Assembly: GCA_964481195.1 (NCBI GenBank)
Contig: CAYZTB010000005.1
Location: 10,138 to 74,137 of the forward strand
DNA length: 64,000 nt
DNA from: an uncultured Bacteroidia bacterium
Lineage (GTDB): Bacteria; Bacteroidota; Bacteroidia; Palsa-948
Reading direction: 5' to 3'
In this document: in pieces, positions 42,499 through 62,752 of the stretch
How positions within the stretch are numbered: the stretch's first letter is position 1
Layout of the letters: every line of letters starts with the position of its first letter
Program-made: the position numbers and the translations under genes
Notes under the pieces: model-generated
Databases searched by the model: none
The model's input: the letters and a program-made list of their open reading frames with translations, nothing else
Told to the model about the DNA's origin: nothing

Positions 42499-45400
42499 CT
42501 ACCTAACTACATTTACATTTCCAACATAAATAAACTGTTGGCTAAACACATCTACTAAGCTTACTTTCCAAACATATACGTCTTCTTGCATTAAAATTCC
42601 ACTTTGTCCATTCATATCAGACCCACCAGGTTTAACTATGCCATCCCATTGACAATAAGAAGATAAACCATCTTGACCAGGGCTGTCCCAATCTGTATTT
42701 TTTCCTGTATGATGACAATCCCAAATCATATTTCCCCATCTATCAAATATCCAAATATCGTATTCTTTTATTCCTCTACCCTTTCCAAAGAACATATCAT
42801 TAGTTCCGTCTTTATTGGGTGTAAAGGTGTTAGGTATATAAAAAGTAACTTCTGGCAAGATCTCAATTACTTTAGAAATTGTATCCCAGCAACCATAAAT
42901 GTTTTGAACAGTTAATGTAACCGTATAAGAGTAAAAATTATTCGTAGTGGTGGTTGCTGAATAACTATGAATTGGATCCGTATGCGTACTGTCTAATGAT
43001 GATCCATCGCCAAAATTCCACATCCAATTTGTAACATTGGTTGACCATAAATCACAAAAATTAAATGTTGGGTCTGTGATACTTGCAAAATTTGGAGTCA
43101 CACAAAATTGAGCATCGGGCCAGTCATAAATAGTAATGTATAGTGGAGCAGATATTGAATCTACACAACCATAAGTAGAAGTAACAATTAATGAGGCGTT
43201 GTAACTTCCTGGCTTGCTCCAACAAATTGTAGGATTTTGAGAAGTAGAAAAACTTGGATTACCTCCCGGGAATGACCATTGCCAGCTTGTTATAGTACCG
43301 TCAACTGACGTAGACAAATCAGAAAAAGTTGCGCAGGATGGAGCACATCCTTTTACTGAATCAGAAAATAATGCAATGGGTGACTGGTATATTGTAATTG
43401 CACTTGTTGTAGTATCCTTACAGCCGTTTATGGTTGTTACAATAAGTGTGACCGTATAGGCGCCAGAAGATACATACGTATGAGTTGGATGTTGATTTAT
43501 ATCGTTGGGTGAGCCATCGCCAAAATTCCAATTCCAAGCATTGATAGCATTTCCTGCTTGCGTTGTAGAAGCATCAGTAAAATTAGTTGGCGCATTCAAA
43601 CATCCGCTTTGAGAAACAATTGCAGCAGCAGGAATTGGATATACCTGAATAGGAATAGAAGTAACATTTTGACAACCACTATCAGATGTAACTGTTAAAA
43701 TCACAGAAAAAGTTCCTGATAAACTAAATGCATGACATGGGCTTTGCAATGCAGAAGTATTTGCAATTCCGGTGCTAGGATCACCAAAATTCCAACTCCA
43801 AGAAATAATATTGCCTGGATTTACTGTTGAATTATCTGTAAAACATGTCTGCGATCCAAAACAAACTGACGTAGAAGTAAACAATGCAGTGGGCAAAGGA
43901 TTTACAATTGCAAGAAGTTGAATGGAATCCGAACATCCTTCAGCATTGGACACTGTAAGACTTACAGAAAAAGTACCCGGATTATTATATGTATGTGTTG
44001 GATTTTGTATTGAAGAAGTGTTTCCATCGCCAAAATTCCAGCTCCACTGGATTGGAGCACCTGTTGATAAATCCATAAATACAGTAGGATTATTGAAACA
44101 AACAATGGATGAAGAAAAATTAGCAACCGGACTTGGATTTACTGTAACAGTTTGGCTTATAGTATCTGCACATCCGGTGATTGTTGTTACTATTAAAGTA
44201 ACAGAGTAAGTTCCAGGTGAAGCAAAAATATGAGATGGATTCTGTAGCGTATCGAGCGCACTTCCATCGCCAAAATTCCAGCTCCAAGTAGCAATTGGGT
44301 CGCCTATTTGAGCAACAGTTGAATCAATAAAAAAAGTTGTAGCTCCTATACATACTGGGCCAGATCCAAATGCAGCTGCAGGTGTCAATCCTCCAACACC
44401 TCCAGTAACAGCAACTGTTGCTGTATAAGCAACATTGCAACTAGTTGATGCTGTCACAGTATAATTCCCTGGACATAAACCTGTAATCGTTTGAGTGGTT
44501 TGCCCACCAGGAGACCACATTAACAAATAGTTAACCTGATTACAACAAGCTATAATATTCGCAGTAGCAGTACCATTGCAAGTACCACCACAACCCGTAT
44601 TAGAAGGAGTTGAAGTAACAGTAAAATTTTGAACAACAGTAATTGGAGGTATATCAATTTCAGTTACAAAAGCAGTTCCACATGCATACAATTTATTATT
44701 GGGGCCAAGCTTAACATCTGCACAAGTGTTTGAAAGTGAATAGCTAGCTAACGCCACAAGTGAAGAATCATAAACCTGAACATTACTCCCTATACCAACA
44801 TACACTTTGTCGCATTTATCCACGGATAAACCACCTGAGGAAAACATAATACCTCCCGTATTTACTTGGCTTTTAAATGCTCCGGTATTTTTATTCCATT
44901 TCTTAAGTACGTTACCGTCATAGCTATATAAATTACAATAGCTGCAAGTCATTCCGTTGTACCCATTAGCACGATTTGCAACTCCTCCTACATATGTTAC
45001 GCTGTTCCACTCATAAAAAGAATATCCTGTAGGAACTAAAAAAGTATACGGAGCAAGTGCAGGTATAGGAACTTTAAACATTTCATTACTAAACTGTAAG
45101 CCATGAACCAAGCTACGAGCAGTTGACATGTATGCAAAAGTTCCTAATGGATCGATTGTCAATAATACAATATCATGATAACCAATATTTGTTGTAGCAA
45201 TTGAATTAACTGGAGAAATACTTAATAAATTTGTATCAAGCATACAAGTTTGATTGGAAGTATTTGTTCCTCCTCCCCCAATAACAATTTTATTTGTGCA
45301 ACTATTGTATTCAGCACGCCACATTTCTACAAAAGTAGTTGAACCAGGAAATATTGCAGTTTGTATACCGAGTGTATTCACTTTTAATGCTCTAGATCCA

Positions 45401-46407
45401 ACACCGGCATTGTACCCTTCAACTAAATAACTTGTACCTGTATTTTCATCCACTGTAAAATCTCCATATTGCAGTGGACCTAAACCTGCTGCATTAAACA
45501 CCCATAATAGCGCACCTGCAGGACTAAATTTTGCAAGCTTAAAGGGCGTGTGTGATCCATAAGCGTAAACATTTCCATTCTTATCAAAGTTTACATCATA
45601 AGCAACATTGTATCCAGCAAAAGTTGGGTTTGTAACCCAAGGGTCAATTACTATTGTCTTCTTGTTGTTATAACTATCAACATAAAAAAATAATTCATTT
45701 CCTTTTAGAATATAATTTGACTTTAGAATGGTTTTTTCATTTTCATATGTTGTAATTGGTGCATGATCAACAAAATCGCCAAATAAACTTTTTGAAATAA
45801 TGTCGCCATTTGAATTCAAAACCATTCCTGTGGTATTGGGTAATTGTAATCTAACTTTTGATATATCCGCTCCCGGCCTTACAATTATATTATACTTTAT
45901 GCCCTCCTTATTTTTTGGAAAAAAATATTCTACGTCAATGTTTTTGTAAATATTTTTGTAAATTATTTTACTATAGCCTTTAGCTTTTATTGGATTTCCT
46001 AACGAATCAGCATAGGAATAATAATGCGAAACCTCTTCTTCTGCAATAATGTTTACAGCTGGATTTGCGCCTATCCAATGAGCGCTGTAAAAAAATACTT
46101 CAGAATTAGTTTCAGCCTGCTCATTCTCTTCTTGGTTATCTTCCTTTTTTCTTACAGAGGCTTTATCATATCTGTATGTAATTTCTTCTCTGGTAAAAAA
46201 CACTTCAACGCCCGAACTATTAGTAGAAAATAATATTTGCGAAGAGCCTGTATTGCTTTTTCCATCAAACTGTCCTTTATTTTCTATAAATACCTTATGC
46301 CCAAAAGGATTAGTAGCATCCCATCGTTCCTGACTAATGCCCACCAAAGAAAGTAGGAAGCTTCCAATAAATAAAAAAGACTTGCCATGGAGGTTAATTA
46401 CTCTCAT
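42499..46407 (-). CDS. Large secreted adhesin (paralogue B): signal peptide, beta-propeller-like head of about 600 aa, an SprB-like repeat, five PKD domains, and a T9SS type-B CTD
   Basis: The PKD pattern WSWNFGDG... appears five times. The C-terminus YIPNTFTPNKDGTNDMFFGKGRGIKEYDIWIFDRWGN is a type-B CTD. The last 450 aa are about 75% identical to paralogue C. Confidence 0.8.
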   Translation of the reverse strand: MRVINLHGKSFLFIGSFLLSLVGISQERWDATNPFGHKVFIENKGQFDGKSNTGSSQILFSTNSSGVEVFFTREEITYRYDKASVRKKEDNQEENEQAETNSEVFFYSAHWIGANPAVNIIAEEEVSHYYSYADSLGNPIKAKGYSKIIYKNIYKNIDVEYFFPKNKEGIKYNIIVRPGADISKVRLQLPNTTGMVLNSNGDIISKSLFGDFVDHAPITTYENEKTILKSNYILKGNELFFYVDSYNNKKTIVIDPWVTNPTFAGYNVAYDVNFDKNGNVYAYGSHTPFKLAKFSPAGALLWVFNAAGLGPLQYGDFTVDENTGTSYLVEGYNAGVGSRALKVNTLGIQTAIFPGSTTFVEMWRAEYNSCTNKIVIGGGGTNTSNQTCMLDTNLLSISPVNSIATTNIGYHDIVLLTIDPLGTFAYMSTARSLVHGLQFSNEMFKVPIPALAPYTFLVPTGYSFYEWNSVTYVGGVANRANGYNGMTCSYCNLYSYDGNVLKKWNKNTGAFKSQVNTGGIMFSSGGLSVDKCDKVYVGIGSNVQVYDSSLVALASYSLSNTCADVKLGPNNKLYACGTAFVTEIDIPPITVVQNFTVTSTPSNTGCGGTCNGTATANIIACCNQVNYLLMWSPGGQTTQTITGLCPGNYTVTASTSCNVAYTATVAVTGGVGGLTPAAAFGSGPVCIGATTFFIDSTVAQIGDPIATWSWNFGDGSALDTLQNPSHIFASPGTYSVTLIVTTITGCADTISQTVTVNPSPVANFSSSIVCFNNPTVFMDLSTGAPIQWSWNFGDGNTSSIQNPTHTYNNPGTFSVSLTVSNAEGCSDSIQLLAIVNPLPTALFTSTSVCFGSQTCFTDNSTVNPGNIISWSWNFGDPSTGIANTSALQSPCHAFSLSGTFSVILTVTSDSGCQNVTSIPIQVYPIPAAAIVSQSGCLNAPTNFTDASTTQAGNAINAWNWNFGDGSPNDINQHPTHTYVSSGAYTVTLIVTTINGCKDTTTSAITIYQSPIALFSDSVKGCAPSCATFSDLSTSVDGTITSWQWSFPGGNPSFSTSQNPTICWSKPGSYNASLIVTSTYGCVDSISAPLYITIYDWPDAQFCVTPNFASITDPTFNFCDLWSTNVTNWMWNFGDGSSLDSTHTDPIHSYSATTTTNNFYSYTVTLTVQNIYGCWDTISKVIEILPEVTFYIPNTFTPNKDGTNDMFFGKGRGIKEYDIWIFDRWGNMIWDCHHTGKNTDWDSPGQDGLSSYCQWDGIVKPGGSDMNGQSGILMQEDVYVWKVSLVDVFSQQFIYVGNVNVVR

Positions 46408-46455
46408 TAATTATTGTTTAAAAAAATAGTACTCAAAAAAAGTAATCCGCAATAA

Positions 46456-49400
46456 TTACCTTACCACATTAACATGTCCGATGTATGCATGTCGTTTATT
46501 AAACACATCTATTAATCTTACTTTCCAAACATATACGTCTTCCTGCATTAGTTGGCCGCTTTGTCCGCTCATGTCCATGCCGCCTCCTACTACTTTGCCA
46601 TCCCATTTACAAAATGAACTTAATCCATCTTGTCCGGGGCTGTCAAAATCTGTATTCTTTCCTGTATGTTCACAGTTCCAAAGTAAATTGCCCCAACGAT
46701 CGAATACCCATATTTCATATTCTTTAATACCTCGACCTTTACCAAAAAACAATTCATTCATACCATCTTGGTTGGGAGTAAATGTATTGGGAATGTAAAA
46801 TGTAAACTCTGGTAAAATCTCTATTGTCTTGCTTATGGTATCCCAACATCCATAAATATTTTGTACTGCCAATGAAATAGTAAAATAATAAAAATCATTA
46901 TTTAGTACAGAAAGAGAATAAGAGTGTGCTGGGTCTGTATTGATGCTATCTTTTGGAGAGCCATCACCAAAATCCCACATCCAACTTGTTACACTATTTG
47001 ACCAAAGATCGCAGAAAACAAAATTAGGATCTGTAATTGAAGCAACAGTAGGAGCTACACAGAAATTTGCAACCGGCCAATCATATACCGTTATATAAAG
47101 TGGGGTAGCTACGGAATCTACACATCCGTAGCTTGAAGTAACAATTAAGGAAGCACCATATACTCCGGGTTTGTTCCAACAAACTTTTGGATTTTGTAAT
47201 CCTGAAATTGCTGGGTTTCCTCCAGGGAATGACCATTGCCAAGACGCGATGGTTCCATCTATCGAAGTAGATAAATCATTAAAGGTTGCACAAACAGGAG
47301 CGCATCCTTTTACTGAATCCGAATAAAGTGCAATGGGTGGATTGTATATTACTGCTGTGCTTGTGGTTGTGTCTTTACAGCCCTGTACGGTAGTTACAAT
47401 TAAGGTAATGGTATAAGTTCCTAGCGTTGAGTATGTATGAGATGGATTTTGATTTACATCATTGGGTGATCCATCGCCAAAATTCCAGCTCCAAGCATTT
47501 ATTGGACTGCCTGCAGGAGAAGTAGATGCATCAGTAAATGGTGTTAAAGCATTTAAACAAACATTCTTTGGTGTGATAGCAGCTGTTGGCAATGGATATA
47601 CATTGGCAGGCAACATCGTTGTGCTTTGACATCCGCTATCGGTAGTGGCTGTTAAAATTACGGTGAATGTGCCAGGGCCCGAAAATGTATGACATGGGTT
47701 TTGTGCTGTAGATATATTTGCTGCACCGGATGTTGGATCTCCAAAATTCCAACTCCAACCTGTGATGGTGCCAGGTGTTACAGTGGAAGCATCCGTAAAG
47801 CAAGACTGATTGCCTACGCATACGGGCGTGGAGCTAAATAATGCTAAGGGTAAAGGATTAATTATAGCTAATAAATTTACAGTGTCAACACAACTCGAAG
47901 TGTTAGTAATAATTAAAGTTACCGAATAAGTTCCTGGTGCTCCGTAGGTATGTGATGGGTTTTGCGAAGTTGAAGTGCTGCCATCGCCAAAATTCCAATT
48001 CCATTGTGCAACAGTAGGATTCCCTACAGATTGATCAGTAAATAGAGTTGGGTTATTAAAACAAACAGGTGCAGTTATTGCAGCAGCAACGGGGTCAATT
48101 CCTGCTGACACTATAATTGGTATTATAACCGTATCAATACATCCTTGCTGGGATGTAACAATTAAAGAAACCGAATAAGTTCCTGGAGAATATATAATGC
48201 CAGATGGATTTTGCGATATTGAACTTGTTGGTGATCCTCCAGGGAAACTCCAATTCCATACTACAATTGGAGTACCATTGGGAGTGTAGCTTGAATCTGT
48301 AAATGATACAACTCCACTTCCACAAGTCCCTAAAGGTGTGTAATTAAAATTTGATGTTACTTGCATCGGGGTAGGAACATAAGTAATGTAAAACGGACAG
48401 CCAGATGGTTGTGAAACAAGTACAGCAAAAGTATCGCCTGGCTGAGGGAAAGGAATAATAGTTTGTGAGGTAGAATTTGGAGCACCAGTATATGGTTGTC
48501 CGTTATGAGACCACTGATATGTGTAATTAATTATCGGATCGGTAGGTGCAGTAATTGTTACAGAATTTCCTACACAGTATGATGCAGGATTTGTAGAAAG
48601 TGAACCACATGAGAAATCCCAATATGAATAGCAGTAGTGTCCGCCTAACGCACAATCTGAATTTGTAATTACAACAGTCAAATTTTGACCAACAAAAGCC
48701 GATAGATTTACCCCTTCCAAAGTCCACGGCTTATAAGAAACAATCATGCCAGCCGGAGGATATCCCGGATTTAGCGAACCAGCACAAGATGCTTGAAAAA
48801 AACCATTTCCTACTCCTCCATTTAAGTCCGCAATGTATTTTCTATGACTACAGGGAACAGTATCTCCATTGGCTTTTAAAATATAAATTTCTGAAAATGG
48901 CGCTTCTGCTGCCGTATGCCCACCAGGTGGATTCTCAAGCACTAAAGCATATGCATAAATAAAATTTGTATCCTGTGGTCCAACAGTTAGCGGGTATCGA
49001 AGTTGCTCCGAACATCCGTTTCCAGCTGCACCAACGCCCGGAGGTGGGTATGGCAAACTATTGGCACATCCCCCGTTTAAGCCACTTGTATTTGGTTGCC
49101 CTAATTGAATTGATGCATTTCCAAAACCAGGACAAACTAGAGGTATTGGTGGGCCTGTTGTTCCTTGAGTGCAAGGATCTACTCCGGCACCACTAGTAAG
49201 ATTAAACCGAGGTGTAACAGGTGCAACGGGTGCAAAAAATGTAGGATCAGGTGAGCCTCCTTTCTGGTGAAACCCTGTAGCTGCTGTGTAGCTACTCCAT
49301 CCATTTTCTCCGCCTAAATCACTACATGCTGCAAACGGACTTACAGGTATATTTTTTTTTACGATTGGATTTGTACCAGGAGCACTCTCACCATTTTGTA

Positions 49401-49518
49401 TTTGAATTTTATTAGAAGTAGCTTTGTTAGTAGATTGCGCAAATAAAGTTTGTGTACAAAAAAATGTTACACCAACAATAAAAACAAAGAAAATCCAGTT
49501 TCTGTAATACTTATTCAT
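46456..49518 (-). CDS. Large secreted adhesin (paralogue C): signal peptide, MAM-like head domain, PKD domains, and a T9SS type-B CTD
   Basis: The head contains CSDLGGENGWS...RFNLTSGAGVDPCT...PGFGNASIQLGQP...YKPWTLEGVNL...SYWDFSCG, shared with D and E. The C-terminal cassette is shared with B. Confidence 0.8.
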   Translation of the reverse strand: MNKYYRNWIFFVFIVGVTFFCTQTLFAQSTNKATSNKIQIQNGESAPGTNPIVKKNIPVSPFAACSDLGGENGWSSYTAATGFHQKGGSPDPTFFAPVAPVTPRFNLTSGAGVDPCTQGTTGPPIPLVCPGFGNASIQLGQPNTSGLNGGCANSLPYPPPGVGAAGNGCSEQLRYPLTVGPQDTNFIYAYALVLENPPGGHTAAEAPFSEIYILKANGDTVPCSHRKYIADLNGGVGNGFFQASCAGSLNPGYPPAGMIVSYKPWTLEGVNLSAFVGQNLTVVITNSDCALGGHYCYSYWDFSCGSLSTNPASYCVGNSVTITAPTDPIINYTYQWSHNGQPYTGAPNSTSQTIIPFPQPGDTFAVLVSQPSGCPFYITYVPTPMQVTSNFNYTPLGTCGSGVVSFTDSSYTPNGTPIVVWNWSFPGGSPTSSISQNPSGIIYSPGTYSVSLIVTSQQGCIDTVIIPIIVSAGIDPVAAAITAPVCFNNPTLFTDQSVGNPTVAQWNWNFGDGSTSTSQNPSHTYGAPGTYSVTLIITNTSSCVDTVNLLAIINPLPLALFSSTPVCVGNQSCFTDASTVTPGTITGWSWNFGDPTSGAANISTAQNPCHTFSGPGTFTVILTATTDSGCQSTTMLPANVYPLPTAAITPKNVCLNALTPFTDASTSPAGSPINAWSWNFGDGSPNDVNQNPSHTYSTLGTYTITLIVTTVQGCKDTTTSTAVIYNPPIALYSDSVKGCAPVCATFNDLSTSIDGTIASWQWSFPGGNPAISGLQNPKVCWNKPGVYGASLIVTSSYGCVDSVATPLYITVYDWPVANFCVAPTVASITDPNFVFCDLWSNSVTSWMWDFGDGSPKDSINTDPAHSYSLSVLNNDFYYFTISLAVQNIYGCWDTISKTIEILPEFTFYIPNTFTPNQDGMNELFFGKGRGIKEYEIWVFDRWGNLLWNCEHTGKNTDFDSPGQDGLSSFCKWDGKVVGGGMDMSGQSGQLMQEDVYVWKVRLIDVFNKRHAYIGHVNVVR

Positions 49519-49533
49519 TTTTTTGTATAAATT

Positions 49534-52155
49534 TTACCTTACCACATTAACATGCCCAATATACATGTGTTTTTTATCAAAAATATCAACTAATCTAACT
49601 TTCCAAACATAAACGTCTTCCTGTGCTAGTTGATTGCTACCTCCGCCCATATCAACACCACCTTTTACAACCTTGCCATCCCACTTACAAAACGAAGGCA
49701 ATCCTTCTTGTTTTGGATTAGTGGCATCGTTATCCCAGTTTGTGTTTTTATCTTCGTGATGACAATCCCAAATTTGATTTCCCCATCTATCGAACAACCA
49801 GATATTATATTCTTTAATGCCTCTTCCTTTACCATAAAATAACTCGTTTACAAAATCGCCATTAGGCGTGAATGTATTTGGAATATAAAATGTAAACTCA
49901 GGCATCAACTCTACTATTTTACAAATAGTATCCCAACATCCATACTGATCCTCTACCCTTAAGCACACGTTGAAAGCATAGAAGTCATTTTGCGTAGCTG
50001 TTGCTGAGTAACTATGAATTGGGTCTGTGTTTACATAGTCAGAATCATTATCTCCAAAATTCCAAGACCACGATATTACATTTGAAGTCCACAGGTCACA
50101 AAAATTAAATACCGGATTGGTTACAGGCTGCATAGTCGGAGTTACACAAAAATTTGCTTTAGGACCTGGTACTGTAGAAATCATAGGAAGAGTAAGCGTG
50201 TCCTTACAACCATAGTTAGTTGTAACCAATAAAGTTGCATTATAATTTCCTGGCGTGTAGTAACAAATATTAATAGGATTTTGAGCGGCAGAACCAGTAG
50301 GTGTGCCTCCAGGGAATGTCCATTGCCAATTAACAATATTGCCATCTACTGGCTGAGATAAATCTGTGTAATCATTACAAATTACACCGCAGCCACTATC
50401 AGGAGCAGAGAAATTAGCAAGAGGAGGATTGTAAACAACTACCTGTTGAACTACAGTATCTATACAACCATTTTTAGATGTTACCACTAAAGTAACCATA
50501 TGAGTACCAGCTGTTAAATAGCTGGTAGCTGTATTTTGAGAAGTAGCAGAAGTTGGAGTACCACCCGGCATTGACCAGTTCCAAGCTGTTATCGGATCTC
50601 CTTGCAATCCAACAGAACCATCTGTTAATGATGTAGCATTTCCTAAACATGGCGTTGATGGGGTAAGTGCTGCGGTAGGAAATCCTCCCGTTGTGACAGA
50701 ATGGGTAACATTAGCTGAACACCCATTCGATGCTGTGATAGTTAACGATGCAGTATAATTACCCGGAGGGTATGTTACATTAACAGTAGGCGTAGTTGCT
50801 GTTGCTGGTGAACCGCCAGGAAACGACCAACTATATCCGGTAATATTTGCAGATCCTTGAGGTGAAACAAAGCTGCTATCTTTAAAAATATAATTACCAC
50901 AAACACCCGTAAAATTAAAGTTAGGCAATGCTAGTCCTGGGGCATAAGTAAGATAAAAATTACAACCTGATGGTTGAATAACTTGAAGCTGAAACGTATC
51001 TCCTTGTACTGGGTTAACAACATAGGTTTGGTTAGTTTGACCCGGTACAACTACACCATTATGATACCATTGATAAGTAAATGGATTATTGGGGTCAGAG
51101 ATAGGGCCTGTCATTGTGGAAGTACCACCTATACAGCCTAGAGAAAGAGGTACAGGACCACACTTGAAATCCCAATAGGAGTGAGCATAATGACCACATT
51201 GTGCACAATCCACGTTTGTAATAATAATAGTTAAATTTTGTCCTACATATTGTTTAAGATTTACTCCAACTGTAGTCCAAGGTTTGTATGACGTACTAGT
51301 ACCTCCAAGACATCCTCCTGTTCCTGCAGCAGTAAAAAATCCTGGGAGTGGGCCAGAACCTCCAGGGGCTACATATTTTTGGTAAGAACAATCCACTGTG
51401 TCTCCATTTGGAGCAAGAATTAAAAATTCTGCAAATGGGCGCTGGGTTTGAGAATGCGAAGATCCTGGATCGAATAATACAACCGCATAAGCGTAAACAA
51501 AGTTTGTATCTTGTACAGTAGGAACAAAATTATAAGTCATTTGTTCTACCCAACATCCAGTTTTTTGAGGACATCCAAGTTGCAACGATGCGTTACCAAA
51601 ACCAGGAGCAACTAATGGAATTGTTGGACCAGGGCCACCTCCAATAGGATTAGTTCCGGGAGTACAAGGATCTATTCCAGTACCTGAAGTCATTGTAAAA
51701 CAAGTAGTAGTAGAGTTTGTATTTACAGGAGGGGATACAGAAGCACTCATGGTAGGAATACCTGTAGTACCATTTGTAGTACCCGGTGCACCTGCCCACG
51801 TACTCCATCCGTTTTCAAATCCAACATCACCGCAAGCCATTACAGATGGAGGGTTGCCGGACTTATCTTTTAGCACACTTAGATCTTCTTTGTGTACATT
51901 TTTAAAGTCTTTAAAAAATTGCTTTCTATTGGCTATTAACTTATCAATAACTACAGATGGAACTCCATCTTTTTTCATAACCTCTCTCTCTTTTGCTTCA
52001 TTAAAATATTGGGGAGAAATTCTGTAGTCCCCTAAAAGCTTAGGCTCATTTGATGGATTTGTCTGAGCGTTTGTTGTAGTCGAAATTAACATCGCTACGG
52101 TAAATGCTCCAACAATAATTGAAGCAAACGATAATTTGTTTTTTAATGTATTCAT
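49534..52155 (-). CDS. Large secreted adhesin (paralogue D): signal peptide, MAM-like head, PKD domains, and a T9SS type-B CTD
   Basis: It has the same head-domain motifs as C and E (MACGDVGFENGWSTW; RFN-like; SYWDFKCG). The CTD is YIPNTFTPNGDFVNELFYGKGRGIKEYNIWLFDRWGNQIW. An 11-nt gap to the upstream gene indicates an operon. Confidence 0.8.
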   Translation of the reverse strand: MNTLKNKLSFASIIVGAFTVAMLISTTTNAQTNPSNEPKLLGDYRISPQYFNEAKEREVMKKDGVPSVVIDKLIANRKQFFKDFKNVHKEDLSVLKDKSGNPPSVMACGDVGFENGWSTWAGAPGTTNGTTGIPTMSASVSPPVNTNSTTTCFTMTSGTGIDPCTPGTNPIGGGPGPTIPLVAPGFGNASLQLGCPQKTGCWVEQMTYNFVPTVQDTNFVYAYAVVLFDPGSSHSQTQRPFAEFLILAPNGDTVDCSYQKYVAPGGSGPLPGFFTAAGTGGCLGGTSTSYKPWTTVGVNLKQYVGQNLTIIITNVDCAQCGHYAHSYWDFKCGPVPLSLGCIGGTSTMTGPISDPNNPFTYQWYHNGVVVPGQTNQTYVVNPVQGDTFQLQVIQPSGCNFYLTYAPGLALPNFNFTGVCGNYIFKDSSFVSPQGSANITGYSWSFPGGSPATATTPTVNVTYPPGNYTASLTITASNGCSANVTHSVTTGGFPTAALTPSTPCLGNATSLTDGSVGLQGDPITAWNWSMPGGTPTSATSQNTATSYLTAGTHMVTLVVTSKNGCIDTVVQQVVVYNPPLANFSAPDSGCGVICNDYTDLSQPVDGNIVNWQWTFPGGTPTGSAAQNPINICYYTPGNYNATLLVTTNYGCKDTLTLPMISTVPGPKANFCVTPTMQPVTNPVFNFCDLWTSNVISWSWNFGDNDSDYVNTDPIHSYSATATQNDFYAFNVCLRVEDQYGCWDTICKIVELMPEFTFYIPNTFTPNGDFVNELFYGKGRGIKEYNIWLFDRWGNQIWDCHHEDKNTNWDNDATNPKQEGLPSFCKWDGKVVKGGVDMGGGSNQLAQEDVYVWKVRLVDIFDKKHMYIGHVNVVR

Positions 52156-52166
52156 CTTTGTTTAAT

Positions 52167-53432
52167 TTAATCTGTAATTGTAATTAAGCCTTGTTGGTAA
52201 ATATCTCTTCCATTTTTGTTTTTTACTACTGCTTTCCATAAATAAGTTTCTCCTTTTCTTGTGTTATTTCCTTCCCATACTAGATTTTTATCTGATGTTT
52301 TATATACGATGTTCCCTTGTGCATCTGAGATAGTAATTGTAAATTCATAATCTCCCGACTGAAGAGTAATAGGCATCCAAGTATCATTAATCCCGTTTCC
52401 ATCTGGGCTAAATGCATTAGGGGCTAACAAGTCTAATTCGTTTTTCAGATTCACTTCTTTTACTACAACACCCACACATCCAATTTGATTTTTTACATAT
52501 AAAGTAACTTTGTACGATCCATACTTTTTATACGAGTGACTAGGGCTTGGCATGAAAGAAGTTTGCTTATCTCCAAAATCCCATTTCCAATCTGCAGCAT
52601 CGCTATAGTCAGAATCAAAATTAACCAGTAACTCATTTTCTGCCGAAACCAATGTGTTTATTCTTGGATCTGGAGCAGCAGAAACAATAATATTGTTTTT
52701 CTCCTCTGCTTTTTTTCTGTCTACTTCCGAAATGATTTGAAGTTTTACTGTAAAGGAACCTGCCTCTTTATAGATATGTTTGGGGCTTGCTTCTGTAGAT
52801 GATTGACCATCGCCAAAATACCATTTGTAGGAGCAAACAGCCTCATTTTTTGCAGGCAAAAACTGCACTTCTTCTCCTTCGCAAATTGCACGCTTGCTTG
52901 TTTGGAAAGAAGCCGATAAGACAACCGGAATAGTTTCTTGTTTCTGCGCAGTGGTTGTTTGAGTAGGAACAGTAGGAGTGTTTTTGTTATCTGAAACTAA
53001 AACTTCATTTTTCTTTTGATTATTTTCTACTTCAGGAGATTTTCCCAAAACCACATTATTGTTTTCTACTTTTCTAGTCTCCTCTTTATTAGAATTCACT
53101 GCAGCATGCTGATTGTTTAAATTTATTTTTCTATTAGAAGGATCAGCATTTTGAATTTGTGTGTTTTCTTCAGAAACAACTGGCATACTTGTTTTCTCAA
53201 CAACATCTTTTGGTGCATTAACCGAATTGCTTTCAGTACTAAAGTAATAGAATAGCCCAGATGCTAAAATAACTGAGGCAGCAATTAAAATATTTCTTGT
53301 AATTTTTGATGTAGGATTACTAACCGCAGCAGTGTCAAGTTTACGTTCTAGCGCTTTCCAATCCGCTGCATTATAATCCACCTCGAAGTTTTCAAGCGAC
53401 TCTTTAATGTGTTTATCTAACTGGCCTTTCAT
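52167..53432 (-). CDS. Signal-anchored (N-in, single TM) protein with a low-complexity linker, two PKD domains and a T9SS type-B CTD; candidate anti-sigma factor or sensor for the adjacent ECF sigma
   Basis: A 44-aa hydrophilic N-terminus precedes one TM helix (ILIAASVILASGLFYYF). The PKD patterns are KWYFGDGQSS...HIY and WKWDFGDKQTS...HSY. The CTD is LLAPNAFSPDGNGINDTWMPI. A 1-nt gap to the sigma stop codon indicates translational coupling. The anti-sigma role is inferred from position and topology only. Confidence 0.45.
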   Translation of the reverse strand: MKGQLDKHIKESLENFEVDYNAADWKALERKLDTAAVSNPTSKITRNILIAASVILASGLFYYFSTESNSVNAPKDVVEKTSMPVVSEENTQIQNADPSNRKINLNNQHAAVNSNKEETRKVENNNVVLGKSPEVENNQKKNEVLVSDNKNTPTVPTQTTTAQKQETIPVVLSASFQTSKRAICEGEEVQFLPAKNEAVCSYKWYFGDGQSSTEASPKHIYKEAGSFTVKLQIISEVDRKKAEEKNNIIVSAAPDPRINTLVSAENELLVNFDSDYSDAADWKWDFGDKQTSFMPSPSHSYKKYGSYKVTLYVKNQIGCVGVVVKEVNLKNELDLLAPNAFSPDGNGINDTWMPITLQSGDYEFTITISDAQGNIVYKTSDKNLVWEGNNTRKGETYLWKAVVKNKNGRDIYQQGLITITD

Positions 53433-53433
53433 T

Positions 53434-54015
53434 TTATTTTTGATGTGCTGTTACTATCTTTTCGAGATCTTTTTTTAAGTGTGCTTTTGCTTTAGACAAA
53501 TTAGATTTTGAAGTGCCTATATTAATTCCTAACTGATCTGCAATTTCCTGATGCGAAAAACCGTCAACAACAAATAAGTTGAAAACTGTTCGGTAGGCCT
53601 CTGGTAATTGTTGAACTGCTTGCATGATTTCTTTAGTGCTTAACTGTAAATATTCGCTTTCGTCTGTTGTTTCGTCTGCTTTATCTTCTATAAAATCCGA
53701 ACTTGTATGATTAATAAATTGCTTATTCTTTCTTATATAATCTAGTGCTGTATTAACAATAATTTTTCTTACCCAACCTTCAAATGATCCTTTTCCTTGA
53801 TATGATTTAATACTTGTGAATACTTTTAAAAACCCATCTTGTAATATATCTTTTGCTTCTTCATTATTAGCTGAGTATCTCAAACAAGCTCCCATCATTT
53901 TGCCATACAATTTCTGATATACTAATTGCTGGTATTTTCTTTCCCCTTTAATACAACCTTCAATTATGTCAAAAAACGGATCTTTTTTATCTTCACTCAT
54001 CACATCTGTACTCAT
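53434..54015 (-). CDS. ECF (sigma-70 family group IV) RNA polymerase sigma factor; the true start is probably the second ATG at 54000
   Basis: Region 2 is DILQDGFLKVF...W..I..N...D. Region 4 is AYRTVFNLFVVDGFSHQEIADQLGINIGTSKSNLSKA. The promoter motif overlaps the first ATG. Confidence 0.85.
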   Translation of the reverse strand: MSTDVMSEDKKDPFFDIIEGCIKGERKYQQLVYQKLYGKMMGACLRYSANNEEAKDILQDGFLKVFTSIKSYQGKGSFEGWVRKIIVNTALDYIRKNKQFINHTSSDFIEDKADETTDESEYLQLSTKEIMQAVQQLPEAYRTVFNLFVVDGFSHQEIADQLGINIGTSKSNLSKAKAHLKKDLEKIVTAHQK

Positions 54016-54045
54016 AAGACGTTAATATTACAAAAGGTTGCCTTA
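54016..54045 (-). promoter_or_regulatory. ECF-type promoter on the minus strand: TAAGGCAACC-N15-CGTCTT followed by a conserved AGTACA box; a candidate autoregulatory promoter of the sigma operon
   Basis: The minus-strand reading is ATAAGGCAACCTTTTGTAATATTAACGTCTTATGAGTACAGAT. The identical architecture recurs at 56790-56820. GGAAC/CGTC-like spacing is typical of ECF sigma promoters. Confidence 0.5.
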
Positions 54046-54131
54046 TTACCTATCCAAAATCAATGATTATTACAAAAAAAGACGAAAATTCATAAATACT
54101 TGAAAATAAATTAAATAAAACACAATACTTC

Positions 54132-54167
54132 AAAAAAAAACCCGTAAGAGAACTTACGGGTTTTTTT
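54132..54167. terminator. Bidirectional rho-independent terminator separating paralogue E from the sigma operon
   Basis: A9 run, then CCCGTAAG-AGAA-CTTACGGG, then T7 run (54141-54160 stem-loop). Confidence 0.75.
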
Positions 54168-54183
54168 ATTGATAGTCAAACAA

Positions 54184-56745
54184 TTACTTTACAATGTTAA
54201 CGTGACCTATATAAAGGTGTTTTTTATCAAATATATCAGTCAGTCTAACTTTCCATACATAAACATCCTCTTGAGCAAGTTGGTTGCTACCACCTCCCAT
54301 ATCTACTCCTCCTTTTACAACTTTTCCGTCCCATTTGCAATAGGATGAAAGTCCATCTTGTTTAGGATTTGTAGCATCATTATCCCAATTGGTATTTTTA
54401 TCTTCTACATGACAATCCCAAATTTGATTTCCCCATCTGTCAAAAAGCCAGATGTTATATTCTTTCACACCACGACTTTTCCCAAAAAACATTTCATTAA
54501 TAAAATCGCCATTAGGAGTAAATGTGTTAGGTATATAGAATGTAAACTCAGGAATAAGCTCCACAATTTTACAGGTTGTATCCCAACATCCGTATTGATT
54601 CTGAACATTAATACAAATTTTATAAGAATAAAAATCATTTGATGTTGCAGTTGCAGAATACGAATGTGAAGGATCTGTATTAATGATATCAGTCGTGTTA
54701 TCGCCAAAATCCCAAGTCCACTGAACTACATCCGTTGACCAAAGGTCACAAAAATAAAATACTGGGTTAGTAGTTGGCGCTATAGTTGGAGTAACACAAA
54801 AATCTGCATTAGGCCATGGGTATACTTCAACCATTGGAAGCTGAATGGAAGCCTTACAGCCAAAGTTTGTAGTCACACTAAGTGAAACGCTATAGGATCC
54901 AGGAGTATAATAACAAATATTAGTTGGGTTTTGAGATGAAGATGAAGATGGTGTTCCTCCAGGAAAAGACCAAGACCAAGAATTTACTGTTCCATCAACA
55001 GCTTGTGATAAATCAGTATAGTTAGCGCACACTGGAGAACAGCCACTATCTGGCGCAGAAAAATTAGCAATAGGAAGATTGTAAACCAATACCTGCTGAA
55101 TAATCGTATCAATACATCCAGCGACAGAAGTAACAATCAAAGAGACGGTATGCGTTCCCGCTATATTGTAAGTTGTTGAGGTATTTTGACTGGTAGCTGA
55201 AGCAGGATTTCCGCCAGGCATATTCCAATTCCAAGATGCAATGGGATCCCCTTGAACAGCCACAGATCCATCTGTTAATGTAGTAGCAACTCCTAAACAA
55301 GGAATAGTAGGAACAACTGCAGCTGTTGGAAACCCACCTACAGTAAGTGGTTGAGAAATAGTTGCCGTACATCCTTCAGATGAAGTAACTGTAATAGATG
55401 CTGTATAATTTCCAGGCGGGTATGTCACATTGGCTGTTTGGGTATTTGCCGTTGATGGACTGCCACCCGGAAAGCTCCAATTCCAATTAGTTATAGTTGA
55501 AGAAGTTGATGGAGTAACAATGCTATTATCTACAAACACATAGTTGCCGCAATTGCCTGTGTAAGTAAAGTTGGGTTGTACAACCGCAGGTGCATATTTC
55601 AAAAAGAAATTACAACCTGATGGCTGGATTACTTGAACAGCAAAAGTATCATTGGGAGTTGGTGTAACTAATAATGTTTGATTTGTTGCACCTGGCATTA
55701 AGGTGCCATTTTGATACCATTGATAATTATAGGGTACAGTAGAAGTCGAAGCTGGTCCAACAATAGAAGATTGGTTTCCAACACAACCCGCTGCTAAAGG
55801 CACTGGGCCACATTGCACATCCCAATAAGAGTGCGCATAGTGTCCACAGAATACACAATCATGATTATCAATTACACAAGTCAATTGCTGTCCTACATAT
55901 GCAGATAGATTTACGCCAACAATTGTCCAAGGCTTGTAAAAAGTACTATTTCCACCTAGGCATCCTGCAGCTGCTGTATACCATCCCGGTAAATTTGGGT
56001 CACTAATATAACGCTGAAAAGAGCAAGGAACTGTATCTCCATTTTGGTCTAATATTTTAAACTCTACATAAGGCTTTTCATTAAATGCATGTCCACTGGA
56101 AGGATCATAAAGTACAGCTGCAAATGCATAAACTAAATTTGTATCCTGTGCAGTTGGAGTGAAGGGAAACGTAAGTTGTTCTGTCATGCAACCAGTAGTT
56201 TGTGGTTGACCTAATTGAATAGAAGAGTTTCCAAACCCTGGAGCAACAACAGGTATTGTTGGAGCTCCTGCTGCAGCTCCTGGCGTACACGGATCTATTC
56301 CCGCTCCTGTTGTTATATTAAATCGAGGTGCTGGTGGATTAGGTACTGCTGGTTGTAATGTGCCGGGATTTCCTCCACTGTTCGAACCTATTGCTCCTAC
56401 CCATTGACTCCAACCATTTTCTACGCCTAAATCAGTACATGCTAAAGGAACAGGATTAGGATCTTTCTTTTTTGAGAATTGGGTAGAAGAAACAATTGAC
56501 TTATACTTTTGAAGATATAATTTTCTATCTGCTAATACTCTATCAATTTCCGGATCTGATAATCCGTCTTTTTTCATCATTTTTCTAAGCTCTTCATCGC
56601 TGGTACCAGTAACTATTGTTGCCTTTTCAGGAGAGTTTTTGCTAATAGTTTGTTGAGCAAACAACTCATTAAAAAAAAATGGTGAACAAAAAAAAGCAGT
56701 GATAAAAAAAATTACAGATAATCTAGCTGTTGTTTGGTTTTTCAT
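54184..56745 (-). CDS. Large secreted adhesin (paralogue E): signal peptide, MAM-like head, PKD domains, and a T9SS type-B CTD; monocistronic
   Basis: LACTDLGVENGWSQW, RFNITTGAGIDPCT, SYWDVQCG. The CTD is YIPNTFTPNGDFINEMFFGKSRGVKEYNIWLFDRWGNQIW. The DNA is about 80% identical to D over the 3' 400 nt. Confidence 0.8.
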   Translation of the reverse strand: MKNQTTARLSVIFFITAFFCSPFFFNELFAQQTISKNSPEKATIVTGTSDEELRKMMKKDGLSDPEIDRVLADRKLYLQKYKSIVSSTQFSKKKDPNPVPLACTDLGVENGWSQWVGAIGSNSGGNPGTLQPAVPNPPAPRFNITTGAGIDPCTPGAAAGAPTIPVVAPGFGNSSIQLGQPQTTGCMTEQLTFPFTPTAQDTNLVYAFAAVLYDPSSGHAFNEKPYVEFKILDQNGDTVPCSFQRYISDPNLPGWYTAAAGCLGGNSTFYKPWTIVGVNLSAYVGQQLTCVIDNHDCVFCGHYAHSYWDVQCGPVPLAAGCVGNQSSIVGPASTSTVPYNYQWYQNGTLMPGATNQTLLVTPTPNDTFAVQVIQPSGCNFFLKYAPAVVQPNFTYTGNCGNYVFVDNSIVTPSTSSTITNWNWSFPGGSPSTANTQTANVTYPPGNYTASITVTSSEGCTATISQPLTVGGFPTAAVVPTIPCLGVATTLTDGSVAVQGDPIASWNWNMPGGNPASATSQNTSTTYNIAGTHTVSLIVTSVAGCIDTIIQQVLVYNLPIANFSAPDSGCSPVCANYTDLSQAVDGTVNSWSWSFPGGTPSSSSSQNPTNICYYTPGSYSVSLSVTTNFGCKASIQLPMVEVYPWPNADFCVTPTIAPTTNPVFYFCDLWSTDVVQWTWDFGDNTTDIINTDPSHSYSATATSNDFYSYKICINVQNQYGCWDTTCKIVELIPEFTFYIPNTFTPNGDFINEMFFGKSRGVKEYNIWLFDRWGNQIWDCHVEDKNTNWDNDATNPKQDGLSSYCKWDGKVVKGGVDMGGGSNQLAQEDVYVWKVRLTDIFDKKHLYIGHVNIVK

Positions 56746-56789: not shown

Positions 56790-56820
56790 AAGACGTAGTT
56801 ATTGCAAAAGGGTTGCCTTA
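56790..56820 (-). promoter_or_regulatory. Second copy of the ECF-type promoter (TTAAGGCAACCC-N16-CGTCTTTAAAGTACAAAT on the minus strand), 45 nt upstream of the paralogue E start codon
   Basis: Read directly from the sequence. It is near-identical to the motif at 54016-54045, including the downstream AGTACA.AT box. Confidence 0.5.
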
Positions 56821-58532: not shown

Positions 58533-58623
58533 GATGGAGAATTAAAGTTGAGTACACAAGGTGAATCACCTTGTGACGCTACACAAATATAAAAAGTTAC
58601 AGGGGAATAGAGAAATAATTACC

Positions 58624-59793: not shown

Positions 59794-59948
59794 AGATTAC
59801 AAATAACTAAGCAATTACAGATTTACTGTTGGTTAATGTGTACACAAAAATAAAGTGAAACACTCTGATAACAGAGCCCTAAAATCTCAGTTATCAACAG
59901 AGTTTTGAGTACTTAAGAAATAAACTTGTAAAATGAAGTGTAAAAGAA

Positions 59949-62573: not shown

Positions 62574-62752
62574 AATGAAAACTGAAATTCAAACTGCATT
62601 TAATTAACAACCATACTTATAAAGATGCAAAAACTTGAAAATCGGTTGCAAAGGAAAACAATTTTTTAGTACAAAAAATATTGTGGACTTTTTTAAACTC
62701 AGTTTCTGCTATGAAAAAATGGGGGTAAAATAATTTTTAAAAGCACCCCAAA

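What the first reader, a model, noticed from the sequence alone, without database searches (positions are those of the whole stretch)
54016..54045. ECF-type promoter overlaps the annotated sigma start codon; the start is probably 15 nt downstream
The minus-strand sequence TAAGGCAACC-TTTTGTAATATTAA-CGTCTT-ATGAGTACAGATGTGATGAGT places the -10-like CGTCTT directly against the first ATG at 54015-54013. The following AGTACAGAT is conserved in the non-coding leader of paralogue E (AGTACAAAT). So the first 15 nt of the called ORF are more likely promoter and leader. Translation probably initiates at the second ATG (54000-53998, giving MSEDKKDPFF...). The -35-like GGCAAC and the CGTC with a 15-16 nt spacer fit ECF sigma promoter architecture, which implies autoregulation.
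Basis: seen in the sequence. Interest (0 to 1): 0.65.

Follow-up and report, generated by a model that had tools for sequence, protein, structure and literature searches.

The report
ECF promoter overlapping miscalled sigma start
A conserved promoter for an alternative (ECF) sigma factor lies directly against the first ATG of the sigma gene, so the protein almost certainly starts five codons later; this is a sound but ordinary annotation correction in an uncultured Bacteroidota genome.

Summary
The minus strand at 54042-54018 reads GGCAACC-N14-CGTC and abuts the first ATG (54015). A second copy lies 46 nt upstream of the neighbouring PKD/CHU_C gene (56817-56792). The exact motif occurs 49 times in 1.1 Mb of related loci, always on the sigma-coding strand (0.65 expected). 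Forty copies lie just upstream of orthologous sigma genes. The rest precede T9SS cargo or PorP/SprF genes.

ATG2 (54000) is invariant in 13 aligned orthologues and lies 16-18 nt after CGTC in all 10 close orthologues. The ATG1 position is ATG in only 4 of 11 (otherwise ACA, ATA, ATT or ATC). Fourteen more distant loci have an in-frame stop after CGTC. Two orthologues have no start codon other than the ATG2 equivalent.

Mapped ECF promoters (T. tengcongensis, F. psychrophilum) place CGT(C) at about -13 to -10. That predicts a TSS at A54009 or C54008, so ATG1 would lie upstream of the transcript and ATG2 would follow a leader of about 9 nt.

No TSS or peptide data exist. The finding itself is ordinary. 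The more interesting by-product is that the sigma's putative membrane-bound partner carries a T9SS type-B sorting domain.

The parts
54036..54042 (-). -35 element GGCAACC of the ECF-type promoter of the sigma operon
   Evidence: It is invariant in 13 aligned orthologous promoters. The exact bipartite motif occurs 49 times on the coding strand and 0 times on the other strand in 1.1 Mb of related loci.
54018..54021 (-). -10 element CGTC (extended CGTCTT to 54016), 14 nt after GGCAACC
   Evidence: It is invariant. CGTC was mapped to -13..-10 in Tt-RpoE1 (PMC3397946). CGT lies at -12..-10 in F. psychrophilum ECF (SM6) promoters with dRNA-seq TSSs.
54013..54015 (-). ATG1, the first ATG of the ORF and the start chosen by automatic gene calls. 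It is predicted to lie at about -6..-4 of the promoter, upstream of the transcript.
   Evidence: P0001. The equivalent codon is ATG in the window, L162, L168 and L169, but ACA, ATA, ATT or ATC in the 7 other close orthologues.
54004..54012 (-). Conserved block AGTACAGAT containing the predicted transcription start (A54009 or C54008)
   Evidence: The block is shared with the paralogue E promoter (AGTACAAAT, 56786-56778) and with orthologues as AAGYAC. The TSS position is inferred from the CGT-to-TSS spacing.
53998..54000 (-). ATG2, the proposed true start codon (gives MSEDKKDPFF...)
   Evidence: It is invariant in 13 of 13 aligned loci. M6 is at least 90% conserved in the protein alignment. 36 of the 45 closest database homologues are called at this Met. 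It lies 16-18 nt after CGTC in 10 of 10 close orthologues.
53434..54000 (-). Revised ECF sigma factor CDS (188 aa plus stop)
   Evidence: Pfam Sigma70_r2 (residues 33-98) and Sigma70_r4_2 (129-180) and TIGR02937. DXXR is present as D92-Y-I-R95 in 193-aa numbering.
52167..53432 (-). Co-transcribed partner and putative anti-sigma: conserved N-terminal cytoplasmic motif, one TM segment, 2 PKD domains and a CHU_C (T9SS type-B) C-terminal domain. It starts 1 nt after the sigma stop codon.
   Evidence: The same architecture is found in 28 of 39 partner proteins of related loci.
42499..52155 (-). Three large PKD/CHU_C (T9SS type-B cargo) genes downstream in the same orientation with 11-48 nt gaps, probably the same operon
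   Evidence: The synteny is conserved in L161, L162, L165, L166 and L170.
56792..56817 (-). Second copy of the promoter (GGCAACC-N15-CGTC) in front of 'paralogue E'. The predicted TSS is A56783, inside AGTACAAAT (56786-56778).
   Evidence: Orthologous copies precede the paralogue E orthologues in L165 and L166.
54184..56745 (-). Paralogue E: an 853-aa PKD/CHU_C secreted protein, a predicted regulon member with a leader of about 37 nt
54130..54172 (-). Intrinsic-terminator hairpin plus U-tract ending the paralogue E transcript. It insulates the sigma promoter from read-through.
   Evidence: -21.9 kcal/mol, z = -7.3. The simple scanner did not list it.

Best explanation
The sequence at 54042-54018 (minus strand) is a functional ECF-type promoter (-35 GGCAACC, 14-nt spacer, -10 CGTC). 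It is most likely recognised by the sigma factor encoded immediately downstream, which would create positive autoregulation of an operon made of the sigma, its membrane-bound partner and three T9SS cargo genes. A second copy drives the neighbouring cargo gene ('paralogue E').

Transcription is predicted to begin at A54009 or C54008, inside the conserved AGTACA block. ATG1 (54015) would then fall in the promoter's -10/discriminator region and be absent from the mRNA. Translation would begin at ATG2 (54000) after a leader of about 8-9 nt, giving a 188-aa protein (MSEDKKDPFF...). Such a short, Shine-Dalgarno-free leader is in keeping with Bacteroidota.

Shown here: the motif, its conservation, its strand bias and its fixed spacing to ATG2, and the non-conservation of ATG1. 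Inferred: the exact TSS, which sigma uses the promoter, and the identity of the partner as an anti-sigma.
For: Motif statistics: 2 hits in the window against 0.15 expected. There are 49 exact hits in 40 of 170 related loci (1.105 Mb), all on the sigma strand, with 0.65 expected on both strands.

Position: the motif lies upstream of sigma in 10 of 10 close orthologues, with CGTC to ATG2 = 16-18 nt. In most of the wider family the distance is 14-24 nt.

Start codon:
- ATG2 is invariant and ATG1 is not. ATG1 is present in 4 of 11 close loci.
- L161 and L081 have no alternative start codon in the open frame.
- 14 loci have an in-frame stop after CGTC.
- L164 has a 1-nt deletion between the two ATG positions.
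- Entropy by codon position is 0.20/0.72/0.79 in the 15 nt upstream of ATG2, against 0.18/0.22/0.57 in the coding part.
- Gene callers chose at least four different starts among close orthologues and translated the promoter in different frames.

TSS placement: CGTC lies at -13..-10 by primer extension in T. tengcongensis (PMC3397946). AAC lies at -31..-29 and CGT at -12..-10 relative to dRNA-seq TSSs in two F. psychrophilum SM6 promoters. One of those TSSs falls 2 nt inside an annotated ATG (PMC9723704 Table S2).

Supporting context: the F. psychrophilum ECF sigma THC0290_1774 has a 13-nt leader (TSS 2057098, start 2057085). The window sigma has DXXR (D92 invariant, R95 at least 90%). The 168-nt intergenic region has no exact sigma-A -7 box (TAnnTTTG), and a strong terminator lies upstream.
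Against: There are no TSS, transcript or peptide data for this uncultured organism. ATG1 is in frame with no intervening stop, and it is retained in 4 of 11 close orthologues (L001, L148 and L158 have an ATG at +3). A longer isoform from an upstream or read-through transcript therefore cannot be excluded. One-mismatch sigma-A -7 boxes exist at 54062-54055 and 54080-54073. A leader of about 9 nt is shorter than the 24-nt flavobacterial median. Autoregulation by this particular sigma, rather than another ECF sigma with a similar specificity, rests on co-occurrence only. The spacer (15 nt from AAC to CGT) is 1 nt shorter than in the mapped examples.
Confidence: 0.8

Rival explanations
1. Two promoters give two isoforms. 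A weak housekeeping (sigma-A) promoter further upstream gives a basal transcript that includes ATG1, so some 193-aa protein is made. The ECF promoter gives the induced transcript, which is translated from ATG2.
For: An autoregulated sigma needs some basal expression. One-mismatch TAnnTTTG boxes lie at 54062-54055 and 54080-54073. ATG1 is in frame and open and is retained in 4 of 11 close orthologues.
Against: There is no exact -7 box and no well-spaced TTG -33 element. ATG1 is absent in 7 of 11 close orthologues and in most of the family, so any 5-residue extension is not under selection. Basal expression could equally come from leaky use of the ECF promoter.
Confidence: 0.12
2. ATG1 is the genuine and only start. 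The GGCAACC...CGTC sequence is a binding site for a repressor or activator, or a chance or duplicated sequence, and the real promoter lies upstream.
For: ATG1 is the first ATG of the longest ORF and is what public gene callers chose for the 99%-identical P0001.
Against: ATG1 is not conserved and ATG2 is invariant. 14 loci have stops after CGTC. The motif has the canonical ECF AAC/CGT architecture and spacing and a strict strand bias of 49:0. The region between the ATGs shows non-coding variability.
Confidence: 0.03
3. The promoter is real and ATG2 is the start, but the promoter is read by a different ECF sigma (cross-regulation or a cascade) and not by the sigma it precedes, so there is no autoregulation.
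For: Bacteroidota carry many ECF sigmas (about 22 per genome; PMC7826278). Overlapping ECF regulons are noted in F. psychrophilum (PMC9723704). AAC/CGT motifs are generic.
Against: The motif co-occurs with this sigma clade: all 16 loci with at least 50.8% identity have it, and it fades out below about 45% identity. It is also found in front of genes physically linked to the sigma. The extended GGCAACC half-site is more specific than the generic AAC.
Confidence: 0.1
4. Translation starts at the in-frame GTG (54003-54001) directly before ATG2.
For: GTG is a legal start codon and would lie on the predicted transcript.
Against: That codon is GTG in only about half of the close orthologues and is GCG, GAG or CAG in the others. 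It would leave only about a 6-nt leader.
Confidence: 0.03

Closest known systems
Autoregulated ECF sigma promoters of the RpoE/SigW/Tt-RpoE1 type (-35 'AAC', -10 'CGT(C)')
   Same: It has a bipartite AAC / CGTC motif with a 15-16 nt spacer, sits directly upstream of the sigma gene, and is followed by a co-transcribed single-pass membrane partner. [quoted passage not shown]
   Different: The -35 half-site is the extended GGCAACC, not GGAAC(TT) or TGAAAC. The leader is very short (predicted about 9 nt, against 39 nt in Tt-rpoE1). The partner has no recognisable class I anti-sigma domain (no Pfam hit in residues 1-45).
Flavobacterium psychrophilum SM6 (ECF-type) promoters with mapped TSSs (PMC9723704)
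   Same: It comes from the same phylum. It has a CGT box at -12..-10 and xxAAC at about -33..-29. That regulon is linked to T9SS genes and to a sigma/anti-sigma pair with a 13-nt leader. One SM6 TSS falls inside an annotated start codon (yceA, distance -2), which is the same kind of annotation clash.
   Different: The -35 boxes seen there are GTAAC and ACAAC, not GGCAACC. The F. psychrophilum regulon comprises T9SS machinery genes, whereas here it comprises type-B cargo and PorP/SprF genes. Orthology of the sigmas was not tested.
Porphyromonas gingivalis SigP (PorXY-SigP control of T9SS genes)
   Same: It is an autoregulated ECF sigma of Bacteroidota tied to type IX secretion. A CTD-bearing protein (PorA) feeds into the pathway (PMC7712824).
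   Different: SigP has no anti-sigma and is stabilised by the response regulator PorX. No PorX/PorY genes are adjacent here. The window sigma scores below the cut-offs of the named Bacteroidota ECF families in NCBIfam.

Membership tests
ECF (group 4) sigma-70 factors | Only regions 2 and 4 are present, in a small protein of about 170-220 aa | tested here: met
   Pfam Sigma70_r2 (60 bits) and Sigma70_r4_2 (63 bits). TIGR02937 sigma70-ECF scores 100 bits against a cut-off of 42.9.
ECF-type promoter | -35 element containing AAC and -10 element containing CGT(C), separated by about 15-17 nt | tested here: met
   GGCAACC-N14-CGTC at 54042-54018 (AAC to CGT = 15 nt) and the N15 version at 56817-56792.
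ECF-type promoter | A transcription start about 10 nt downstream of the T or C of CGTC that depends on the cognate sigma | not testable with these tools
   Only inferred by analogy with mapped promoters. It needs 5'-RACE, dRNA-seq or in vitro transcription.
Autoregulated ECF sigma / anti-sigma operon | The target motif is conserved upstream of the sigma gene across orthologues | tested here: met
   40 of 170 related loci carry the motif, including all loci with at least 50.8% identity. All copies are on the coding strand.
Autoregulated ECF sigma / anti-sigma operon | A co-transcribed anti-sigma factor with a recognisable anti-sigma domain (e.g. zf-HC2/RsrA-like or RskA) | tested here: not met
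   The downstream 421-aa protein is single-pass and translationally coupled. Its first 45 residues match no Pfam or NCBIfam anti-sigma model. Only a family-specific N-terminal motif is conserved. Its anti-sigma function is inferred from position alone.
TIGR02985 Sig70_bacteroi1 (Bacteroidota FecI-like ECF) | Score above the curated cut-off | tested here: not met
   96.4 bits against a cut-off of 126.4.
NF058625 sigma_PG0214 / GFO_1088 ECF family | Score above the curated cut-off | tested here: not met
   89.9 bits against a cut-off of 130.
T9SS type-B CTD cargo (for the partner and the regulon genes) | C-terminal CHU_C / TIGR04131 domain | tested here: met
   PF13585 scores above its gathering score in the partner (34.8 bits against 27) and in all four large paralogues. 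TIGR04131 scores below its cut-off (28 against 35).
T9SS type-B CTD cargo (for the partner) | A cleavable N-terminal Sec signal peptide | tested here: not met
   In the partner the hydrophobic segment starts at about residue 44, after a conserved charged N-terminal domain. That is a signal-anchor topology, not a signal peptide. Paralogue E does have a typical signal peptide.

The most novel reading that the evidence does not exclude
The promoter and start-codon issue may point to an undescribed Bacteroidota signalling module. In it, an ECF sigma family (promoter GGCAACC-N14-17-CGTC, leaders of about 5-15 nt) is paired with a translationally coupled inner-membrane partner. The periplasmic part of that partner is itself a T9SS type-B cargo (PKD-PKD-CHU_C), or in one subclade a PorP/SprF domain. 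The regulon consists of type-B cargo and PorP/SprF genes. One reading the evidence does not exclude is secretion-coupled sigma control: engagement, cleavage or export of the anti-sigma's CTD by the T9SS would release the sigma, by a logic similar to FlgM export by the flagellar apparatus. Cargo expression would then be matched to secretion capacity.
Probability: 0.25. Interest if true: 0.7.

Novelty: new member of a known kind. Interest (0 to 1): 0.3.

Why it matters
In practice, the sigma factor's N-terminus is probably mis-annotated here. It is annotated inconsistently across public databases: at least four different start choices among 11 close orthologues, some of which translate the promoter itself. 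The family-wide motif gives a simple rule for correcting these calls and for predicting the regulon (T9SS type-B cargo and PorP/SprF genes) in many uncultured Bacteroidota.

Conceptually, it adds a clear example of an ECF promoter placed 14-24 nt from the start codon. That implies near-leaderless mRNAs in a phylum that does not use Shine-Dalgarno pairing. None of this would surprise a specialist. The possible T9SS-coupled anti-sigma is the part worth an experiment.

Tried and rejected
- The sigma-70 consensus and terminator scanner was uninformative. It uses the wrong promoter model for Bacteroidota, and it missed the obvious terminator hairpin, which was then confirmed by folding.
- An exact sigma-A -7 box (TAnnTTTG) was sought in the intergenic region and none was found. 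One-mismatch boxes were kept as a caveat.
- Looser motifs (CAAC-N14-19-CGTC, and the -35 half-site with 3 mismatches) gave only chance-level extra hits inside genes at 36314, 43307, 42298 and 34318. These were rejected as regulon members.
- The GTG at 54003 was considered as the start and rejected because it is not conserved.
- Leaderless initiation at ATG1 was rejected because only 2 nt separate CGTC from ATG1, which is far too close to the -10 element.
- I tried to assign the sigma to a group of the ECF classification 2.0 and to read its predicted motif. The supplements are not held and the main text has no relevant group.
- Literature searches for an anti-sigma carrying a T9SS CTD found nothing. 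These searches are not exhaustive.
- The Table S2 row for the F. psychrophilum sigma TSS (2057098) could not be read because the stored file is truncated. The 13-nt leader was computed from coordinates in the main text and SI.

Full report
1. WHAT IS IN THE SEQUENCE

The minus strand from 54045 to 53995 reads TAAGGCAACCTTTTGTAATATTAACGTCTTATGAGTACAGATGTGATGAGT. The elements are:
- GGCAACC at 54042-54036
- a 14-nt spacer
- CGTC at 54021-54018
- ATG1 at 54015-54013
- AGTACAGAT at 54012-54004
- an in-frame GTG at 54003-54001
- ATG2 at 54000-53998

The longest ORF (53434-54015, 193 aa) is an ECF sigma factor. It has Pfam Sigma70_r2 and Sigma70_r4_2 domains and scores 100 bits on TIGR02937. It falls below the cut-offs of the named Bacteroidota ECF families. 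A second copy of the motif, TAAGGCAACCCTTTTGCAATAACTACGTCTTTAAAGTACAAAT, lies at 56820-56778. GGCAAC-N13-18-CGTC occurs twice in the window against 0.15 expected, and none of 100 shuffles reaches two.

2. GENOMIC CONTEXT

The window has 36.8% G+C and comes from an uncultured member of the Bacteroidota. The closest genome hit is a 'Bacteroidetes bacterium' MAG at 64% identity.

The sigma gene is followed 1 nt after its stop codon by a 421-aa protein. That protein has a charged N-terminal segment of about 45 residues, one TM segment, two PKD domains and a C-terminal CHU_C (T9SS type-B) domain. Three large PKD/CHU_C genes follow, with 11-48 nt gaps.

Upstream, the paralogue E transcript ends in a strong hairpin plus U-tract at 54172-54130 (-21.9 kcal/mol, z = -7.3). 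The 168-nt intergenic region has no exact Bacteroidota sigma-A -7 box (TAnnTTTG), only one-mismatch versions.

The gene order topA, arginase-family, CotH, (paralogue E), sigma, partner, PKD/CHU_C genes is conserved in the close orthologous loci L161-L170.

3. COMPARATIVE TEST OF THE PROMOTER

I fetched 160 loci encoding relatives of the sigma and 10 loci encoding the closest database homologues at 63-69% identity.

The exact pattern GGCAACC-N14-17-CGTC occurs 49 times in these 1,105,445 bases. All 49 copies are on the sigma-coding strand and none is on the other strand. Shuffled sequences give 0.65 copies on both strands together.

Forty copies lie just upstream of the sigma gene. That includes every locus whose sigma is at least 50.8% identical to the window's, and the motif fades out below about 45% identity.

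The nine other copies precede:
- orthologues of paralogue E (L165, L166)
- another PKD gene (L170)
- a large secreted protein (L097)
- PorP/SprF genes in one subclade (L082, L083, L085, L086, L088; Pfam 214-223 bits)

The alignment of 13 sigma promoters shows AGGCAACC and CGTC as invariant. The cross-alignment with the cargo-gene promoters keeps GGCAA and CGTC invariant and shows a weaker AAGYAC block 5-10 nt after CGTC.

In several public gene calls the promoter has been translated, and in different frames. In P0005, GNLLQSLRH corresponds to GGCAACCTTTTACAATCTTTGCGTCAT. In P0013, GRQPFVNIPS reads the same element in another frame. This shows that the conservation lies in the DNA and not in a peptide.

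4. COMPARATIVE TEST OF THE START CODON

ATG2 is invariant in the 13 aligned loci. It lies 16-18 nt after CGTC in all ten close orthologues. M6 is at least 90% conserved in the protein alignment, and 36 of the 45 closest database proteins are called at that Met.

The ATG1 position is ATG only in the window, L162, L168 and L169. It is ACA in L161 and L163, ATA in L164 and L165, ATT in L166 and L167, and ATC in L170. L164 also has a 1-nt deletion between the two positions. In L161 and L081 the open frame contains no start codon other than the ATG2 equivalent.

In the wider family, 14 loci have an in-frame stop downstream of CGTC. The first usable start typically lies 14-24 nt after CGTC, and a subclade with short partner proteins has leaders of 36-47 nt.

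Column entropy in the 15 nt between ATG1 and ATG2 is 0.20/0.72/0.79 for 'codon' positions 1/2/3. In the following coding sequence it is 0.18/0.22/0.57. The upstream stretch therefore does not evolve like codons. The sample is small, but the direction is clear.

Gene callers disagree across the close orthologues:
- ATG2 in L161, L162, L165 and L170
- ATG1 in the window's near-identical P0001 and in L168 and L169
- a TTG overlapping the -10 element (TTGCGTC) in L166 and L167
- an ATG upstream of the -35 element in L163 and L164

5. WHERE TRANSCRIPTION SHOULD START

In Thermoanaerobacter tengcongensis RpoE1 the functionally essential CGTC was placed at -13..-10 by primer extension. A DXXR motif in region 2.4 reads -12G (PMC3397946).

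In Flavobacterium psychrophilum, the two ECF-type (SM6) promoters I could read from Table S2 have xxAAC at -33..-29 and CGT at -12..-10 relative to dRNA-seq TSSs (PMC9723704).

Applied to the window, these spacings give +1 at C54008 or A54009, inside the conserved AGTACA block. The same rule gives A56783 in the AGTACA of paralogue E. ATG1 then occupies about -7..-4, upstream of the transcript, and ATG2 follows a leader of about 8-9 nt.

The window sigma carries D92-Y-I-R95. D92 is invariant and R95 is at least 90% conserved, which fits a CGTC-reading sigma.

Short leaders have precedent in the phylum. The median 5'UTR in F. psychrophilum is 24 nt. Its SM6-linked ECF sigma THC0290_1774 has a 13-nt leader (TSS 2057098, start 2057085). 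One SM6 TSS falls 2 nt inside the annotated ATG of yceA, which is the same kind of clash as here.

6. MOST LIKELY MECHANISM

The partner protein is presumed to hold the sigma at the inner membrane. This step is inferred. On release, the sigma directs RNA polymerase to the GGCAACC-N14/15-CGTC promoters in front of its own operon (positive feedback) and in front of paralogue E.

The operon mRNA would start at about 54009 and be translated from ATG2 without a Shine-Dalgarno sequence. ATG1 is an accident of the W-T-A-Y-D-A-G consensus that follows CGTC.

I put about 0.8 on the combined statement 'ECF promoter here, start at ATG2'. I put somewhat less on autoregulation by this very sigma, because co-occurrence is the only evidence for it.

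7. RIVALS

- Dual promoters giving two isoforms cannot be excluded, because ATG1 is open and one-mismatch sigma-A boxes exist. The extension is not conserved, however.
- ATG1 as the sole start is contradicted by the orthologues.
- A different ECF sigma could read the promoter. This is less likely given that the motif tracks this clade.
- The GTG at 54003 is not conserved.

8. COMPARISON WITH WHAT IS KNOWN, AND NOVELTY

The element works like a textbook autoregulated ECF promoter (RpoE, SigW or Tt-RpoE1 type). It resembles the F. psychrophilum SM6 class in phylum, in its T9SS linkage and in its short leader.

It differs in three ways: the extended GGCAACC half-site, the very short and fixed promoter-to-ATG distance, and a partner that lacks any recognisable anti-sigma domain.

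As a finding about this locus it is a new member of a known kind and a routine re-annotation, so interest is about 0.3.

9. BY-PRODUCT WORTH FOLLOWING

In 28 of 39 related loci the partner has the same architecture: an N-terminal motif (FE..IK..L..FEVPYN...W..ME.KL), one TM segment, PKD domains and a type-B CTD. In L093, L104 and L106 it is instead a repeated N-terminal motif plus a TM segment plus a PorP/SprF domain.

The hydrophobic segment starts near residue 44, so it is a membrane anchor and not a signal peptide. A membrane-anchored putative anti-sigma whose periplasmic end is a T9SS secretion signal, controlling a regulon of type-B cargo and PorP/SprF genes, suggests secretion-coupled regulation.

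Three literature searches found no description of such a protein. The nearest concept is PorA feeding into PorXY-SigP in P. gingivalis (PMC7712824). This idea is speculative. I give it a probability of about 0.25, and it would be of real interest if true.

Noticed in passing
window 52167-53432 (-): The gene translationally coupled to the sigma (1-nt gap) encodes a conserved 45-residue N-terminal motif, one TM segment, 2 PKD domains and a CHU_C/T9SS type-B C-terminal domain. This is a membrane-anchored putative anti-sigma that carries a secretion signal. 28 of 39 related loci have the same architecture.
   Followed up: partly
L093 (partner ORF starting 1 nt after the sigma stop), L104, L106: In this subclade the sigma's partner has 3-4 repeats of the N-terminal motif, a TM segment near residue 148 and a PorP/SprF domain (PF11751, 78 bits). 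An outer-membrane barrel domain fused to an apparent inner-membrane anchor is an odd topology.
   Followed up: partly
L082 5315-5340, L083 7002-7026, L085 5553-5577, L086 5474-5498, L088 2925-2950: In the subclade with short (about 230-245 aa) partners and leaders of 36-47 nt, a second copy of the promoter motif precedes a PorP/SprF gene (Pfam 214-223 bits) with a leader of 26-34 nt.
   Followed up: partly
L170 11713-11745: The promoter motif ends only 6 nt before the called ATG of a PKD/CHU_C gene. This is probably another start codon called inside or too close to an ECF promoter.
   Followed up: no
L166 5001, L167 191, L163 156, L164 2284: Public gene calls for close orthologues start at a TTG overlapping the -10 element (TTGCGTC) or at an ATG upstream of the -35 element, so the promoter is translated into spurious N-terminal extensions of 7-19 residues. 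The mis-annotation is systematic in this family.
   Followed up: yes
window 54130-54172 (-): A clear intrinsic terminator (8-bp G+C-rich stem extended by A/U pairs, with a U9 tail; -21.9 kcal/mol, z = -7.3) was not reported by the simple terminator scan of the same region.
   Followed up: yes
window 56913-63928 (-) and L161, L162, L165, L166: The conserved synteny is tRNA U5-methyltransferase, topA, arginase-family protein and CotH-family protein with a type-A T9SS tail (Por_Secre_tail), then the sigma module. Paralogue E is inserted between CotH and the sigma in only some genomes (window, L165, L166).
   Followed up: no
F. psychrophilum Table S2 (PMC9723704), TSS THC0290_T_0036: A dRNA-seq TSS of an ECF-type (SM6) promoter lies 2 nt inside the annotated ATG of yceA. 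This is a published example of the same clash between promoter and start codon.
   Followed up: no
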